Shown here: positions 786 to 56,346 of the stretch, in pieces
Numbering within the stretch: position 1 is the first letter of the stretch
Layout: every line of letters begins with the position of its first letter
Source of the DNA: Candidatus Methanophagales archaeon
GTDB taxonomy: Archaea > Halobacteriota > Syntropharchaeia > Alkanophagales > Methanospirareceae
Direction of reading: 5' to 3'
Length of the DNA: 64,000 nucleotides
Assembly (NCBI GenBank): GCA_003336485.1
Contig: QENH01000201.1
Coordinates: forward strand, 10,704-74,703
The notes under the pieces: model-generated
What the model was told of the DNA's origin: nothing
Databases searched by the model: none
What the model saw: the letters and a program-made list of their open reading frames with translations, nothing else
Program-made: the position numbers and the translations under genes

Positions 786-1005
786 AGTAGTAGTTTTAGC
801 TTTGTAGTATTTAAGTTTTTCTATTTTTGTCTAATTAATTGTCTTATTGGGTAATAAAAGCACAAAAATGATTGGGGTACCGAGAGTCATTATACTATAA
901 GGCATTGAGGGGACGTGTTTATATAGCAGAGGATTCAACGTAATTGCTCAATATCTTGTGGATTTTGAGGTTTAAGAAAGACTACACCAACTATTAATTA
1001 GGACC

Positions 1006-1347
1006 CTACCAAGAATTTTGCTGTGCCTTCCTGACACGGGACATGAATGCTTTGATATCGCTCTGTTCTTTGATAACAATAACATCATAGACTTCAAGAT
1101 ATGGAACTGTAAACTCCACATACTCTTCGTCAATGATTGGTTCAAGTAGAGTTTCCCCCTCAAAATCAGTCTCCACGGTTATTACATCATCGGTATACGT
1201 CGTAACAATGTTTTCAACATCTTGTCGTAAGTCATCATTATAGGTATGGTAAGGGTTATATTTCATATAGAAGTATGACACATTTATCTGTGATGAAAGT
1301 GTCTGAAATGGCGAAAGAAGTATTAATTTGGAATAGTAAGAAAGCAA
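1006..1347 (-). CDS. hypothetical acidic small protein
   Basis: 113-aa ORF in an AT-rich, apparently degraded region; no recognisable motif. Confidence 0.2.
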   Translation of the reverse strand: MLSYYSKLILLSPFQTLSSQINVSYFYMKYNPYHTYNDDLRQDVENIVTTYTDDVITVETDFEGETLLEPIIDEEYVEFTVPYLEVYDVIVIKEQSDIKAFMSRVRKAQQNSW

Positions 1348-1828
1348 AATAACTGCACGATAAAGGTTGGAATAACCGCAATATAGCTCGCTACCTGGTT
1401 GAGTTTGGAATAAGTGTAGGGCCGTTAAACAGGTCTATAAACTCAACACCCACTGCTATGTTGTTCATAAAGGTATATCGGTCGTTCCGCTTTACTGCAA
1501 GCGACCGATAGACTATGACTAATTGGCTTATGTTGTTACATGCTATCAAAATCAAATTTTGTGATAAAAATGTTATATACGATTATGCATAATTAGATAA
1601 ATGAGACAGGTCCAAGTGTCCTACCTTTATTTGAAAATCAACCCTTTCTTGCAAGTGAACACGAACATCCTTCCTTATCAATACCCACTTTTTTGATAGC
1701 ATCTTCAAAGATCCTTTGCACTGTTCTTGTTGTAATTAATATGCATACCATCTTTTTGTCCTGGCATCTAAATTACTACTTTTCTCAGCGTCAACACATT
1801 CTTTCCATCCCTAAACTCATACTTAACC

Positions 1829-2173
1829 TCATCCACCAACGTCTTCGTAAAGTACACACCAAGACCACCTATCTCTCGCTCTCTTATCCAATTTGAAATG
1901 ATGTATGTCGCCTATCAGTCCCGCACCCAAGCAGATTACAGACCCACCAATTAATCCTGCTATCATCGGACCAAGGTCTCGGACGTTTGTAACAGCGCCG
2001 AATATAGAGACCGCGCCGAAGATCGAAATAAGAATAACGCGATTTTTTAACGTGAATCTTTTGTCCAGAATCTCTCTGAAATATTTAGTGCGGGTGATCA
2101 GATAGGCGATTACCAAGATTACGCATATCTTCTCGACCAGCACAAATAAAAGCTCTATTATGGAATATGCCAC
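1829..2173 (-). pseudogene. remnant of a 5TMR-LYT (LytS-type) membrane sensor domain
   Basis: N-terminal ~90 aa match the LytS/YpdA 5TM receptor pattern (TNVRDLGPMIAGLIGGSVICLGAGLIGDIHHF); the ORF then runs into nonsense and stops, with no downstream continuation in any frame. Confidence 0.4.
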
Positions 2174-2245
2174 TTAATTCACCGCATATGATGTAATATA
2201 AATGACCCATATCACATTTATTCTACAATTGTATTACTAAAATTA

Positions 2246-3259
2246 ATGTCTTTTGCAGCAAAAGAGCTACGGGATATATCGGTTGAAGAGGGAGATGATG
2301 CAGAGTACCAGCGGCAGCTTGCGCTCTTTACTCGTTCTTCGACCGAGAAAGGGATTGAACTGGAGAAGCTAGGCGAGATTATTGCGGGACTTCCCCACCG
2401 ACGCTATTTTTTAGACATTGGTGCAGGAGGGGGGGACTTGACTATACCCATCTCGCAATCATTCAAACTGTAACTTTAACCTCTTTTCGTAATAGGTTCT
2501 TCAGGTAGTTTGTGTTCTAGCTTTTCCAGGGGGGTTTTTGATTTTTGGAGTTTTTCTGCGAGTTTTGTTTTTTGCTTTTCCTAGCTCCCATATTACTAAA
2601 CTTAGTAATAGCTATAGGAACAAAAGAAAGTAAGAAAAAACAATGAATACACAAAAGGAGACATCTTAAGCGCTCATACTAAAACCTATTCCTAAAAATG
2701 GTTAAAGTTACAGTTCAAAGAAACAACGGTGGTCGAGCCCAATGCGAAGCTGGCAAGTTATATCAAGCGAAGTTGCCCCCATTTCACGACCTATAACGAT
2801 ATTTTTGGAAAGGTTAATCTTGGCTCAAAACGTTATGACTTCATCCTTTGCTCCCATGTCCTCTATTATATCGAGGAAGATCACTGGCTAACTACGATTG
2901 AGAAGATGCATAGACATCTCATAGCAGGGGGGCGTATTGCCATCGTTTTGCAGTCACCGATCGGAGAGGTGGCGAACTTCTTCAATTGGTTCACACATTA
3001 CGATGTCAATATCCTCAAGCTGTGGCATGATTTGATCCGGCGATATGGCGATGATGCTATCGAAGTACGGTATTTCTTGAATGAGATAATGACAGAAAGT
3101 TTGGATGATATGGTTACAATAGGGCTATTTCTACTGATAGATCGTCGGTTCTGGAAATGCCGGGATAAGATTCGACAGTACTTTGAATTACATCACAAAA
3201 AGGATGACTGCTATCGCATGACTCAGGATGAAAACCTTCTGGTGATCAAGAAGAGTTAA
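2246..3259 (+). pseudogene. class I SAM-dependent methyltransferase split by a MITE-like insertion
   Basis: Fragment 1 (2246-2473) carries motif I LDIGAGGGDLT. Fragment 2 (2729-3259, GTG start in the ORF track) carries motif II region YDFILCSHVLYYI. Both are in the same frame. Deleting 252 bp (element plus one CA) joins them into one continuous ORF (...ISQSFKETTVVEPNAKLASY...). Confidence 0.7.
2466..2715. mobile_element. MITE-like non-autonomous element (250 bp, 16-bp terminal inverted repeats, 2-bp CA target-site duplication)
   Basis: AACTGTAACTTTAACC at 2466-2481 is the exact reverse complement of GGTTAAAGTTACAGTT at 2700-2715. CA flanks both ends (2464-2465 and 2716-2717). The interior is AT-rich and non-coding with an internal palindrome ATTACTAAacTTAGTAAT. 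Excision restores the methyltransferase frame. Confidence 0.65.
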
Positions 3260-3584
3260 GCGTGATTTCAATTATCGCCACATTACCAACCCTTTTCCCT
3301 TCTAATCGGTACATTAATCGGCAACGCCATTTTCATGCACCCGCTCTGCCGAACTTCATGCCTTCGCCACCCCTTTTTCTCCCGCTTTTTCTGCTATCTC
3401 CCGGCTTTCTTTTGGCATAAATTTGAGTTGATAACGACCACACATAAATGACACCTACTTTTTCTTTTCGTGTTCGTTTTAGGCATAGCACCTATGTGCA
3501 TGTTGTAGTGAGTTGTATATGGCGTGGGTTTCCGATCTACCCTAAAGTTTTGGGATAAAGCAGGTTTGAAAACAAAAACGATGG

Positions 3585-3592
3585 GCTTTTAT
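3585..3592 (+). promoter_or_regulatory. TATA-box-like element (TTTTATAT) ~40 nt upstream of the mtd start codon
   Basis: AT-rich octamer at archaeal-promoter-like spacing before the ATG at 3633. Confidence 0.35.
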
Positions 3593-3632
3593 ATCTTTAA
3601 CTACATAAGCATAATATTGAGTGTGATTAAAC

Positions 3633-4466
3633 ATGCAAGTAGTAAAAATAGGATTTGTAAAACTAGGAAACATAGGCGCTTCAAGGATAGTCGATCTGTT
3701 GCTGGACGAGAGGGCCGATAGAGAAGATATAGATGCACGGGTGATGGGGACAGGTGCGAAGATGACGCCAGAGCATGCGGCAGACACTTCTCGGTTGTTA
3801 GATTGGGACCCCGATTTAGTAGTGATAACCAGTCCCAATGCCGCACTTCCAGGGCCTAAGCGAGCACGTGAGATGGTGAAAGAGAAGGGTAAACCCTGCA
3901 TCGTTATCTCAGATGCACCGGCAAAAAAAGCGGTGAATGATTTGAAGGAGAATGGGTACGGATACATTATAATACCTGGCGATCCGATGATAGGAGCGAG
4001 AAGAGAGTTCTTAGACCCCGTAGAGATGAGCCTGTTCAATGCTGATGTACTCTCAGTTCTGACGATAGCGGGAGTAGTAAACTTACTGCAGGAAGAGCTT
4101 GATGCTGTTATAGATGCGATAAAGAAAGGTGGCGATGTGAAACTACCTCAGCTTATAGCCACAGCGGAGAAATCGGTAGAAAGGGCCCAGTTCTCAAATC
4201 CTTATGCAAAATCAAAAGCCATCGCCGCTTATAGCATGGTCGAGAAAGTAGCAGAGCTGGATGTGAAAGGGTGCTTTATGATGAAGGATCCCAAAGAATA
4301 CGTACCTATCGTGGCGGCTGCGCATGAACTATTAAGAGAAGCGGCAAAGCTTGCTTATGAAGCACGGGAGATGGAAAAGCAAACGGACAGCTTAGTTCGT
4401 ATGCCACATGCCAGGACAGGGGAGATATTGAAGAAGGTGAAGCTACAGGATAAGCCAAGTGCGTGA
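3633..4466 (+). CDS. mtd: F420-dependent methylenetetrahydromethanopterin dehydrogenase
   Basis: 277 aa; MQVVKIGFVKLGNIGAS N-terminus, RADREDID, GARREFLDPVEM, NPYA, YVPIVAAAHE and PHA..G blocks match the methanogen Mtd family along its full length. Confidence 0.85.
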   Translation: MQVVKIGFVKLGNIGASRIVDLLLDERADREDIDARVMGTGAKMTPEHAADTSRLLDWDPDLVVITSPNAALPGPKRAREMVKEKGKPCIVISDAPAKKAVNDLKENGYGYIIIPGDPMIGARREFLDPVEMSLFNADVLSVLTIAGVVNLLQEELDAVIDAIKKGGDVKLPQLIATAEKSVERAQFSNPYAKSKAIAAYSMVEKVAELDVKGCFMMKDPKEYVPIVAAAHELLREAAKLAYEAREMEKQTDSLVRMPHARTGEILKKVKLQDKPSA

Positions 4467-4640
4467 CTGATTTACCTTTTTTTTCTTTTTTTATTTTTTG
4501 AATGTGTGCAATAAAGCGTAGACGATGTTAGTTCCATATATAAGGTAATATAATCAGAGATAGGGCTAAAACATTTTTAAAACTTATCAATTTGCTAATA
4601 AATAATGGAACGCTGACCTTTATCCCATTTGTAATTCACA

Positions 4641-7285: not shown

Positions 7286-7402
7286 CGGGCGTGACGGGAT
7301 TTGAACCCGTGATTTGCAGCTTTCTCCCCTTTTTGATCGAACTTAATTATGCGACAAATTTGTTAGGAGGCTGCCGCCATATCCTAGCTAGGCCACACGC
7401 CC
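7286..7402 (-). tRNA. tRNA-Arg (anticodon CCT inferred) with ~41-nt intron at the canonical 37/38 position
   Basis: Reverse complement has acceptor GGGCGUG/CACGCCC plus discriminator G. Anticodon stem is GCAGC/GCUGC around loop CUCCUA + intron + A. T-arm is ACGGG-UUCAAAU-CCCGU. Mature length ~76 nt. Confidence 0.7.
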
Positions 7403-55187: not shown

Positions 55188-55330
55188 GACATTTTGTTTA
55201 CAAAATACTTGGAGGCGCCGGTAACAACATTTGCTGTAAAAGATCGCGTTCTCGCTCATAACCCGCTTAGCGCGATAGATATATTCCGCGTATCCTCTGA
55301 ACAAATTGGTGGTCAAAAAGCAAGAAAATA
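55188..55330 (+). repeat. orphan ~135-bp copy of the 3' end of the DUF1847-like gene (partner 56212-56346), with a 4-nt insertion
   Basis: tttgtttacaaaatacttggaggcgccggtaacaacatttgctgtaaaagatcgcgttctcgctcataacccgctt... is ~92% identical to the last 45 codons of gene 55759-56346. Confidence 0.8.
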
Positions 55331-55393
55331 AATTATTGACACAGATTAACGCAGATTAACGCAGAAGAAATTAAATCAGTGTAAAAGAGAGTT

Positions 55394-55750
55394 TTGATGG
55401 ACGACAGGGCACTAAGAGCCACAGTGGGGCTATCCGCATCAGAATTTAATCAACTGGCGCAGGGTTTTGGTCCAGAAATAGAAAAAAATATACTCATCAT
55501 CGATATAAATAGATGGATTGGTTATTTGAGCCCTCCAGAAGAAGGTAAAAAGCACGATTGTGGTATGTTCAAAGGCCTATTTCCGCCGGAGATATTCCCA
55601 AAAGGCATAACGCTATGGCTAGAGCATGCTATCGGCGGAATTAAGCGAATGCGAATAACAACTGACAAGTTTCGCAACAAGTCTATTTATTACTACTATA
55701 ATTATAATTGCAGATGTTGTAGCAACAAAATTATCATGAGGGATATATAA
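55394..55750 (+). CDS. hypothetical protein
   Basis: 118-aa ORF between the orphan repeat and the DUF1847-like gene; no motif recognised. Confidence 0.3.
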   Translation: MMDDRALRATVGLSASEFNQLAQGFGPEIEKNILIIDINRWIGYLSPPEEGKKHDCGMFKGLFPPEIFPKGITLWLEHAIGGIKRMRITTDKFRNKSIYYYYNYNCRCCSNKIIMRDI

Positions 55751-55758
55751 GATATATT

Positions 55759-56346
55759 ATGAATTGCGCAAGTTGCAAAGAGAAAACGTGCTATAAAGGC
55801 AAGGACTGCACTAAAATTGCAGAAGATGTCAAAAAGGCATACAAAGGCGATGCCCTCAACTCGCTTAGAGTCGCTACACGTATAGAATCACGGTATTACA
55901 TGAAGAAAAACCGTATAGAGGAGTTGATTTTATATGCGAAAGAGATGGGCTACAAGAGATTAGGCGTTGCCTTCTGCATAGGCATGCAAAAAGAGGCGGA
56001 AATATTATGTGATCTTCTATTGCAATACTTCGATGTGTCTTCGGTCTGTTGCAAGGTATGTGGGATTGATAAATCCTACTTCGAGCTGGACCGTCTTCAC
56101 AAGGATGCAGAAGAAGAGGCGATATGCAATCCAATAGGGCAAGCAATGATTTTAAACAATGAAAAGACTGACTTGAACATCATTCTGGGATTGTGTATCG
56201 GACACGACACTTTGTTTACAAAATACTCGGAGGCGCCGGTAACAACACTTGCTGTAAAAGATCGCGTTCTCGCTCATAACCCGCTTGGCGCGATATATTC
56301 CGCGTATCATCTGAACAAATTGACGGTCAAAACGGAAAAACTTTAA
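55759..56346 (+). CDS. Cys-rich metal-binding protein, DUF1847-like
   Basis: 195 aa; N-terminal CASCKEKTCYKGKDC cluster; resembles a methanogen/clostridial DUF1847 family by recollection only. Confidence 0.4.
   Translation: MNCASCKEKTCYKGKDCTKIAEDVKKAYKGDALNSLRVATRIESRYYMKKNRIEELILYAKEMGYKRLGVAFCIGMQKEAEILCDLLLQYFDVSSVCCKVCGIDKSYFELDRLHKDAEEEAICNPIGQAMILNNEKTDLNIILGLCIGHDTLFTKYSEAPVTTLAVKDRVLAHNPLGAIYSAYHLNKLTVKTEKL

What the first reader, a model, noticed from the sequence alone, without database searches (positions are those of the whole stretch)
2246..3259. 250-bp MITE (16-bp TIRs, CA target duplication) precisely interrupting a SAM-methyltransferase gene; in-silico excision restores the ORF
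The exact inverted repeat AACTGTAACTTTAACC/GGTTAAAGTTACAGTT bounds an AT-rich non-coding 250-bp segment flanked by CA on both sides. Removing 252 bp fuses the two methyltransferase fragments in frame, with a sensible beta-2 acidic motif (TTVVEPN). Motif I is on fragment 1 and motif II on fragment 2. This is a textbook recent MITE insertion and defines a previously uncatalogued element family for this genome.
Basis: seen in the sequence. Interest (0 to 1): 0.6.

Follow-up and report, generated by a model that had tools for sequence, protein, structure and literature searches.

The report
IS1634-derived MITE splitting a methyltransferase gene
A 246-bp non-autonomous transposon, a gutted copy of an IS1634-family insertion sequence common in ANME-1 methane-oxidising archaea, has recently jumped into and knocked out a SAM-methyltransferase gene; this is real but ordinary mobile-element biology.

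Summary
An exact 16-nt inverted repeat (2466-2481 / 2700-2715) bounds an AT-rich segment with stops in all six frames. Deleting 252 bp gives a 253-aa class I SAM-methyltransferase that is colinear, with no gap, with intact orthologues (89/86/80% identity). DNA-level empty sites exist in relatives, one of them 95% identical in nucleotide sequence.

The MITE interpretation is right, but the boundaries are mis-parsed. Comparison with 8 other copies and with full-length parents shows:
- The element is 246 bp (2468-2713).
- Its ends are CTGTAAC...GTTACAG.
- The target duplication is 6 bp, TTCAAA (2462-2467 and 2714-2719), not CA.

The autonomous relative was found. It is a ~1.63-kb IS with the same ends, 6-bp AT-rich duplications and a ~500-aa transposase that passes NCBIfam's IS1634-family cut-off. 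The MITE equals IS nt 1-136 joined to the last 104 nt.

Copies occur only in ANME-1/Methanophagales MAGs and sediment or vent metagenomes. The window itself is a Methanophagales MAG, in which GenBank annotates the 3' fragment as a hypothetical protein.

Verdict: a genuine, young insertion and a new member of a known kind. Interest is low. Copy number in this genome could not be measured.

The parts
2246..2467 (+). 5' fragment of the class I SAM-methyltransferase gene. It starts at ATG 2246 and covers codons 1-73 plus the start of codon 74, carries motif I LDIGAGGGD, and includes the left copy of the target duplication. As it stands, the reading frame stops at TAA 2471-2473, inside the element.
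   Evidence: ORF 2246-2473. Translation. Alignment to intact orthologues that start MSL/MSF. 94.7% nucleotide identity to L087-L091 over restored-gene nt 1-375.
2462..2467 (.). Left copy of the 6-bp target-site duplication, TTCAAA.
   Evidence: The empty site in L022-L025 reads CAATCATTCAAAGAAAC, with one copy only. The two blastn pieces (window 1902-2467 and 2714-3253) overlap by exactly 6 bp on L022 6223-6228. 6-bp duplications occur in other copies.
2468..2713 (-). The 246-bp MITE, an internal-deletion derivative of an IS1634-family IS. The ancestral transposase orientation is the minus strand. There is no coding capacity: the longest ORF is 45 aa.
   Evidence: Copies at 80-96% identity in L060, L015, L051, L042, L057/L080, L002 and L016. 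In transposase orientation, nt 3-136 match IS nt 3-136 and nt 143-246 match IS nt 1527-1630 of L069. Stops in all six frames.
2468..2498 (+). Terminal inverted repeat at the window-left end. This is the IRR of the parent IS, downstream of the transposase. It reads CTGTAACTTTAACCTCTTTTCGTAATAGGTT, and the transposase stop codon (TAA, minus strand, 2478-2476) lies inside it.
   Evidence: Inverted-repeat pair I1. This end is shared by all MITE and full-length copies.
2683..2713 (-). Terminal inverted repeat at the window-right end. This is the IRL of the parent IS, upstream of the transposase. The other copies read CCGTAAC here; this copy reads CTGTAAC.
2479..2574 (-). Remnant of the last 32 codons of the transposase gene (residues 482-513 of the L069 protein, ...LEKLEHKLPEEPITKRG*).
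   Evidence: tblastn of the L069 transposase against the window gives 59% identity, E 1e-4. Minus-strand frame translation.
2578..2682 (-). Remnant of the IS 5' region, holding the transposase upstream region and start codon. The ATG is on the minus strand at 2591-2589, in the context ITKFSNM. The deletion junction lies at about 2572-2577.
   Evidence: residues 4-15 at 2624-2589. The same ...ITKFSNM... appears in full-length copies.
2714..2719 (.). Right copy of the 6-bp target-site duplication, TTCAAA.
2720..3259 (+). 3' fragment of the methyltransferase gene, carrying the VVEPN acidic loop, DFILCSHVLYY and the C-terminal domain. The stop is TAA 3257-3259. GenBank annotates only the GTG-initiated ORF 2729-3259 (176 aa) as a hypothetical protein.
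   Evidence: ORF list. Alignment. Identical to RCV62689.1, Methanophagales archaeon. 95% nucleotide identity to L092/L093.

Best explanation
Window 2468-2713 is a non-autonomous transposable element (MITE) derived from an IS1634-family insertion sequence by loss of about 1.39 kb of transposase coding sequence.

What it retains:
- both terminal inverted repeats, which are the transposase binding and cleavage sites;
- about 136 nt of the IS 5' region;
- the last 104 nt of the IS.

Inferred mechanism: a DDE transposase of the cognate ~1.63-kb IS, supplied in trans, mobilised the element. It inserted by a 6-bp staggered cut at the AT-rich site TTCAAA, inside codons 72-74 of a class I SAM-dependent methyltransferase gene of an ANME-1 (Methanophagales) archaeon.

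Consequence: the insertion separates the SAM-binding motif I (beta1 and the Gly loop) from the beta2 acidic residue and the rest of the Rossmann fold, and puts a stop codon 6 nt into the element. The gene is therefore inactivated. The insertion is evolutionarily young.

Shown:
- the element structure;
- the family and the parent IS;
- the 6-bp duplication;
- empty orthologous sites;
- intact coding potential of both halves.

Inferred:
- trans-mobilisation by the IS1634-type transposase;
- loss of enzyme function.
For: 1. Gene restoration.
- Excision gives a 253-aa ORF with a Pfam methyltransferase domain spanning the junction.
- Intact orthologues at 89, 86 and 80% identity and 100% coverage align with no gap. 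ISQSFKETTVVEPN is identical in them.

2. Empty sites at the DNA level.
- L022-L025 carry a single TTCAAA.
- The sister lineage L087-L091, 94.7% identical in nucleotide sequence, is continuous across the site.

3. A real mobile family.
- Full copies with the same internal junction lie at unrelated loci: L060 95.5%, L015 93%, L051 89%, L042 84%, L057/L080 82%, L002 and L016 80.5%.
- Two copies in the single MAG GoMg2 are 99.2% identical to each other and lie on different contigs.

4. Each copy has its own 6-bp direct repeat: TTCAAA, TTTAAA x2, TTAAAT, ATAGAT, ATTAAG (full-length IS L029) and GTCCAA. L057 has 5 bp, TGAAT.

5. The parent.
- 1,629-1,630-bp elements (L066, L069, L082) and an 1,860-bp element (L029) share the same ends.
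- They encode a 513-aa ORF (about 499 aa from the likely true start).
- NCBIfam IS1634 family: 138 bits against a cut-off of 100, covering profile positions 7-480 of 483. Pfam DDE_Tnp_1 also matches.

6. The MITE equals IS nt 3-136 plus nt 1527-1630. Transposase N- and C-terminal remnants are detectable on the window's minus strand.

7. The published IS1634 family description fits: 1500-2000 bp, ends C-----YT, 5-6 bp AT-rich duplications, preferentially in Euryarchaeota (PMC2266710).

8. Youth.
- The duplication and the 14-nt terminal repeat are perfect.
- All 56 columns invariant across 61 orthologues are kept. There is only 1 private substitution (R92S), within the 0-3 range seen in intact orthologues.
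- Among nine copies tested, this is the only one whose excision restores a long ORF.

9. Not a misassembly. An independent Logan assembly of SRR6058406 (L086) reproduces window 1602-3803 exactly, including the element.
Against: - No transposase of this family lies in the 64-kb window, and the rest of this genome could not be searched. Neither a cognate transposase nor further copies have been shown in this organism.
- The sampled full-length ISs are only 74-80% identical to the MITE's retained parts. The immediate parent has therefore not been found.
- Both the MAG contig and a k-mer-based Logan contig run straight through the element. This hints that near-identical copies are few in this genome (inference).
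- Four elements with both ends called (L031, L042, L069, L082) do not show a clean 6-bp duplication.
- Loss of enzyme activity is inferred from fold logic, not measured.
Confidence: 0.93

Rival explanations
1. A full-length IS1634-family element inserted here and then decayed in place by internal deletion. On this view no MITE as such ever transposed into the gene.
For: The element is an internal-deletion derivative of the IS. This locus shows other deletions: the neighbouring 5TM-LYT/SpoIIE and HATPase_c_2 genes are truncated.
Against: The same 246-bp architecture, with the same junction, recurs colinearly at 8 or more unrelated loci in other genomes, each with its own duplication. The deletion therefore predates these insertions. 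The window copy is 95.5% identical to MITE copy L060 but only 74-80% identical to any full-length IS.
Confidence: 0.03
2. One reading: a 250-bp element with 16-bp terminal repeats and a 2-bp (CA) duplication. That would point to an IS630/Tc1-mariner-like or similar parent.
For: For targets of the form TTNNAA, the sequence fits a 2-, 4- or 6-bp duplication equally well. AA precedes CTGTAAC in all 10 of the first copies examined.
Against: Copies in non-TTNNAA targets have perfect 6-bp repeats and lack the AA/TT: ATAGAT|CCGTAAC...GTTACAG|ATAGAT in L051, ATTAAG in L029, and GTCCAA in L060. The parent transposase is IS1634 family, whose known duplications are 5-6 bp.
Confidence: 0.02
3. The intervening segment has a function. 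It might be an excisable or spliced intervening sequence, or a reversible on/off switch of the methyltransferase through precise excision between the 6-bp repeats. Alternatively, the two fragments might work as a split enzyme.
For: Both halves are still fully open and conserved. The same gene is independently interrupted in a sister lineage, where an uninterrupted allele also exists. The 252 bp removed is a multiple of three.
Against: The segment is a decayed transposase gene with IS ends. There is no Rfam match. It has stops in every frame. Other copies sit in non-coding DNA. Neither fragment alone reaches a Pfam cut-off. Nothing supports splicing.
Confidence: 0.03
4. Assembly artefact: a repeat was wrongly threaded into the gene during metagenome assembly.
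For: The source is a metagenome-assembled genome. Elements of this family commonly sit at contig ends.
Against: A perfect 6-bp duplication of exactly the sequence present once in the empty sites is the signature of transposition, not of misjoining. An independent assembly gives the identical structure.
Confidence: 0.01

Closest known systems
IS1634-family insertion sequences (De Palmenaer et al. 2008, PMC2266710; NCBIfam NF033559)
   Same: The full-length relatives (L069, L082, L066, L029) match the family on four points: the DDE transposase scores above the family cut-off, the length is 1.63-1.86 kb, the ends are C-----YT (CTGTAACT / CCGTAACT), and the duplications are 5-6 bp and AT-rich. They also occur in Euryarchaeota. 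The window element has the same ends and the same duplication length.
   Different: The window element is 246 bp and has lost about 1.39 kb, including essentially the whole transposase, so it cannot move on its own. IS1634 and IS1549 themselves make long, variable duplications of 8-514 bp; none are seen here.
Archaeal MITEs derived from ISs by internal deletion, such as the Sulfolobus solfataricus SM elements and halophile or methanogen MITEs (recalled from the literature, not tested here)
   Same: It is small, non-coding, bounded by the terminal repeats of a co-occurring IS, flanked by a duplication of the parent's length, and present at several loci.
   Different: It has a different parent family and a different host lineage (ANME-1). 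I found no published description of this family.
IS630/Tc1-like MITEs with 2-bp duplications, such as bacterial Correia-like or TA-duplicating elements.
   Same: Short, AT-rich, with terminal repeats, and able to disrupt genes.
   Different: The duplication here is 6 bp and the parent transposase is IS1634 family. This element is not a member of that class.

Membership tests
MITE (non-autonomous IS derivative) | Small size (tens to a few hundred bp) with no transposase coding capacity | tested here: met
   246 bp, stops in all six frames, longest ORF 45 aa.
MITE (non-autonomous IS derivative) | Terminal inverted repeats | tested here: met
   The terminal repeat is 14 nt perfect and extends to 31 nt. 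As measured, including the duplicated bases, it is 33 nt at 88%.
MITE (non-autonomous IS derivative) | Flanking target-site duplication, present once in empty sites | tested here: met
   TTCAAA lies on both sides. It is single in L022-L025 and in L087-L091.
MITE (non-autonomous IS derivative) | Several copies at unrelated loci | tested here: met
   At least 8 other full copies occur in ANME-1 MAGs and metagenomes, including two at 99.2% identity within one MAG. Copy number in the window's own genome was not testable; there is one copy in 64 kb.
MITE (non-autonomous IS derivative) | A related autonomous element with matching ends | tested here: met
   The 1.63-kb ISs L069, L082, L066 and L029 share both ends. 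The MITE aligns to IS nt 3-136 and nt 1527-1630.
MITE (non-autonomous IS derivative) | Mobilisation in trans by the parent transposase | not testable with these tools
   Inferred from the shared ends and from independent insertions with the parent's duplication length. It needs a transposition assay.
IS1634 family (for the parent element) | Transposase matches the family model above its curated cut-off | tested here: met
   NF033559: 138.2 bits against a cut-off of 100, E 4e-40, profile positions 7-480 of 483. Pfam DDE_Tnp_1, E 1.6e-16.
IS1634 family (for the parent element) | Length 1500-2000 bp with a single ORF | tested here: met
   Elements of 1,629, 1,630 and 1,860 bp, with one 513-aa ORF. 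Family definition from PMC2266710.
IS1634 family (for the parent element) | 5-6 bp AT-rich target duplication | tested here: met
   Seven elements have a perfect 6-bp repeat (in L060 only after a 1-nt shift of the end call) and one has 5 bp; most are AT-rich. Four elements have no clean repeat. Family definition.
IS1634 family (for the parent element) | Terminal consensus C-----YT | tested here: met
   CTGTAACT and CCGTAACT.
IS1634 family (for the parent element) | Variant or absent YREK motif and a long N3-C1 spacer in the transposase | not tested
   The catalytic-motif alignment was not done.
Class I SAM-dependent methyltransferase (the interrupted gene) | Rossmann-type methyltransferase domain with motif I (GxGxG) and a downstream acidic residue | tested here: met
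   The restored ORF matches Methyltransf_23/25/12/11 above their cut-offs. DIGAGGGD and VVEPN are invariant or nearly invariant across orthologues. The substrate is unknown.

The most novel reading that the evidence does not exclude
The methyltransferase gene may be a recurrent target whose loss is favoured, or which is toggled, in ANME-1 populations.

- It is hit here by the MITE at codon 74.
- In a sister lineage 95% identical in nucleotide sequence, it is hit at codon ~125 by a different IS4-superfamily IS. An uninterrupted allele also exists there.
- Three contigs from two further lineages break within 1-10 nt of the MITE site.

This pattern could reflect selection for inactivation, or reversible switching by precise excision between the 6-bp repeats. 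The alternative is chance hits in a dispensable gene.
Probability: 0.08. Interest if true: 0.45.

Novelty: new member of a known kind. Interest (0 to 1): 0.2.

Why it matters
The practical value is in annotation. GenBank lists the 3' fragment of this gene as a hypothetical protein and does not flag the gene as interrupted. The element and its parent IS also break many ANME-1 metagenome contigs.

Defining the 246-bp MITE, its 1.63-kb IS1634-family parent, its ends and its 6-bp TTNNAA-like target gives a marker for three uses:
- repeat masking;
- pseudogene calling;
- tracking recent transposition and strain differences in uncultured methane-oxidising archaea.

It does not reveal a new mechanism.

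Tried and rejected
- **Rfam.** An E-value scan of 1500-4500 and a gathering-threshold scan of the whole window found no RNA family in the element.
- **More copies in the window.** Low-stringency blastn found none beyond chance, and tblastn found no transposase.
- **The genome scan's non-ANME hits.** These were in Methanimicrococcus, an 'uncultured Methanosarcinales' MAG (L009) and bacterial MAGs. They match only the 22-23 nt of the search pattern and were dismissed as unrelated.
- **L014 and L004/L075 as candidate autonomous parents.**
  - L014 is a degenerate ~240-bp copy overlapping a membrane-protein ORF.
  - L004/L075 is one locus. It has only 44 nt of the IS end followed by unrelated sequence, so it is a solo end.
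- **Viral contigs.** No copy was found.
- **Exact look-up of the window's Mtd protein.** It is not on record. The organism was instead identified through the 176-aa fragment.
- **Strand folding.** The DNA fold has z = -3.7, but the structure is simply the pairing of the terminal repeats. I did not take it as evidence for a structured RNA.
- **2-bp and 4-bp duplication parses.** I considered both and rejected them using the non-palindromic targets.
- **Literature.** Searches for ANME-1 plus MITE or IS1634 found nothing specific.

Full report
**Observation.**
- The sequence is as described. AACTGTAACTTTAACC lies at 2466-2481 and its exact reverse complement at 2700-2715. These are the only exact matches in the window. 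The inverted repeat extends imperfectly to 33 nt at 88%.
- The enclosed segment is 32.8% GC against 42.4% for the window, and has stops in all six frames.
- Removing 252 bp fuses ORF 2246-2473 with ORF 2729-3259 into a 253-codon frame reading ...ISQSFKETTVVEPN....
- The restored protein matches four Pfam class I methyltransferase models above their cut-offs, over residues 49-152 and so across the junction. Neither fragment alone reaches a cut-off.

**Is the segment foreign to the gene?**
- Yes. A search with the restored protein found 204 relatives. The best are 89, 86 and 80% identical, with 100% coverage and lengths of 253-266 aa.
- In a ten-sequence alignment there is no gap at the junction. 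SQSF and TVVEP are invariant or nearly so.
- At the DNA level, contigs encoding P0002 (L022-L025) read CAATCATTCAAAGAAAC. The two blastn pieces from the window (1902-2467 and 2714-3253) overlap by exactly six bases on L022.
- A still closer lineage (L087-L091, 94.7% nucleotide identity) is continuous across the site. The insertion is therefore younger than that divergence.

**Is it a mobile family?**
- A pattern scan of one genome per species returned 21 loci. Those in ANME-1/Methanophagales MAGs share far more than the pattern. They include one MAG labelled 'uncultured Halobacteria'.
  - L015 matches at 93% over the full length.
  - L002 and L016 match at 81% over the full length.
  - Several other loci are partial copies at contig ends.
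- The remaining hits, in Methanimicrococcus, an 'uncultured Methanosarcinales' MAG and bacterial MAGs, match only the 22-23 nt of the pattern.
- A metagenome scan added 57 loci. Among them are full short copies in L060 (95.5%), L051, L042, L057/L080 and L031, together with many ends at contig termini.
- Eight copies align colinearly, with the same internal junction.
- The two copies in MAG GoMg2 are 99.2% identical and lie on different contigs, which indicates recent transposition there.

**Boundaries and target duplication.**
- Other copies settle the question. With ends defined as C(T/C)GTAAC...GTTACRG, the flanking direct repeats are:
  - TTCAAA (window);
  - TTTAAA (L002 and L016);
  - TTAAAT (L015);
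  - ATAGAT (L051);
  - ATTAAG (full-length L029);
  - GTCCAA (L060, with a 1-nt shift);
  - TGAAT, 5 bp (L057/L080).
- The non-palindromic cases lack the AA/TT, so those bases belong to the target and not to the element.
- The element is therefore 2468-2713 (246 bp), with a 6-bp duplication at 2462-2467 and 2714-2719.
- L031, L042, L069 and L082 show no clean repeat.

**Parent element.**
- In L069, L082, L066 and L029 the two ends lie 1.63-1.86 kb apart and enclose a 513-aa ORF. Database homologues start 14 residues later, at about 499 aa.
- The protein passes NCBIfam's IS1634-family model (138 bits, cut-off 100) and Pfam DDE_Tnp_1.
- In transposase orientation, which is the window's minus strand, MITE nt 3-136 align to IS nt 3-136 (74%) and nt 143-246 align to IS nt 1527-1630 (80%).
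- tblastn recovers the last 32 transposase residues at 2574-2479 and the start region at 2624-2589.
- Size, C-----YT ends, 5-6-bp AT-rich duplications and euryarchaeal distribution all match the published family description (PMC2266710).
- Homologous transposases are widespread in archaeal metagenomes, mostly on ~1.5-2-kb contigs as expected for repeats. They include Methanophagaceae and Altiarchaeales records.

**Age and consequence.**
- The restored protein keeps all 56 columns that are invariant across 61 sequences. It has one private change (R92S), within the 0-3 range of intact orthologues.
- Together with the perfect duplication, this points to a recent event.
- Of nine elements tested by in-silico excision, only this one restores a long ORF; the others sit between genes or near gene ends.
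- The insertion separates motif I from the beta2 acidic loop and places TAA at 2471-2473. Loss of function is the reasonable inference, but it was not measured.

**Source and reliability.**
- The 176-aa fragment is identical to RCV62689.1, 'hypothetical protein C5S53_17440 [Methanophagales archaeon]', on an 87.7-kb contig.
- An independent Logan assembly of SRR6058406 (L086) is identical to window 1602-3803, including the element. This argues against misassembly.
- Contigs that run through the element also suggest few near-identical copies in this genome. That is an inference.
- The genome itself could not be scanned, so local copy number and the presence of a cognate transposase remain open.

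**Rivals.**
- Decay in place of a full-length IS is contradicted by the shared junction at unrelated loci.
- An IS630-like 2-bp element is contradicted.
- An intron, intein or switch reading has no positive support.
- Misassembly is contradicted.

**Comparison and verdict.**
- This is a MITE in the standard sense, and its parent is a bona fide IS1634-family IS.
- I found no paper describing it, and ISfinder could not be queried.
- It is a new member of a known kind. It is useful for annotating ANME-1 genomes but mechanistically ordinary.

Noticed in passing
L087-L093 (orthologous gene in a sister lineage); corresponds to window ~2866-2871: The same methyltransferase gene, 95% identical in nucleotide sequence, is independently interrupted at codon ~125. 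The duplication there is TATATC(A). The inserted element is a different full-length IS encoding a 640-aa DDE transposase (L088 598-2520). Its best NCBIfam match is IS4 family, at 111 bits, just under the cut-off of 115. A cluster member (P0244) is uninterrupted at that codon, so the insertion looks polymorphic.
   Followed up: partly
L083 nt 1, L084 nt 1, L085 nt 1; correspond to window 2720, 2726 and 2729: Three contigs from other metagenomes begin 9, 3 and 0 nt upstream of the GTG at 2729. That is 1-10 nt right of the MITE and its duplication. They carry orthologues at 92.6% and 82% nucleotide identity and retain no IS sequence. The cause of these coincident contig breaks is unexplained.
   Followed up: partly
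window 1786-2173 (minus strand): The neighbouring genes are decayed. The 5TM-5TMR_LYT/SpoIIE gene keeps only residues 1-102 of 454 (2173-1895). It abuts residues 99-132 of a 146-aa HATPase_c_2 gene (1887-1786). This is a ~1.3-kb deletion relative to L022 and L087, where both genes are intact. Window 786-1786 has no convincing ORF.
   Followed up: partly
window 55321-55385, and ORF 55394-55750: A ~60-nt motif (ttgacacagattaacgcagattaacgcag...) recurs at 86-96% identity in at least nine other ANME-1 loci: L015, L004/L075, L033, L017, L035, L031, L016, L050 and L081. In L033 and L081 it directly abuts the IS1634 end. The 118-aa ORF next to it has no Pfam match. It may be the end of another mobile element or a remnant of one.
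   Followed up: partly
window 55200-55326 and 56218-56340: A 127-nt direct repeat at 90% identity. The first copy duplicates the 3' end of the Cys-rich ORF 55759-56346 and brackets the segment that holds the motif described in the previous item. This suggests an insertion-associated duplication or tandem paralogues.
   Followed up: no
window 7286-7402 (minus strand): Rfam finds a 117-nt tRNA (50.8 bits) that ARAGORN missed. It is probably an intron-containing archaeal tRNA.
   Followed up: no
L075 1-1255 = L004 2771-3166: A solo IS1634 right end (44 nt) is followed by unrelated sequence containing an ORF that starts MSAELTKEDIFRLF. This is a truncated or rearranged copy.
   Followed up: partly
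alignment A2, transposase orientation; window ~2517-2591 (minus strand): Most MITE copies keep a ~24-codon basic ORF running from the ancestral transposase ATG to a conserved CTAG. In L060 a 1-nt expansion of an A-run fuses it in frame to the transposase C-terminal remnant, giving 38 aa. This is probably meaningless, and conservation was judged by eye only.
   Followed up: no
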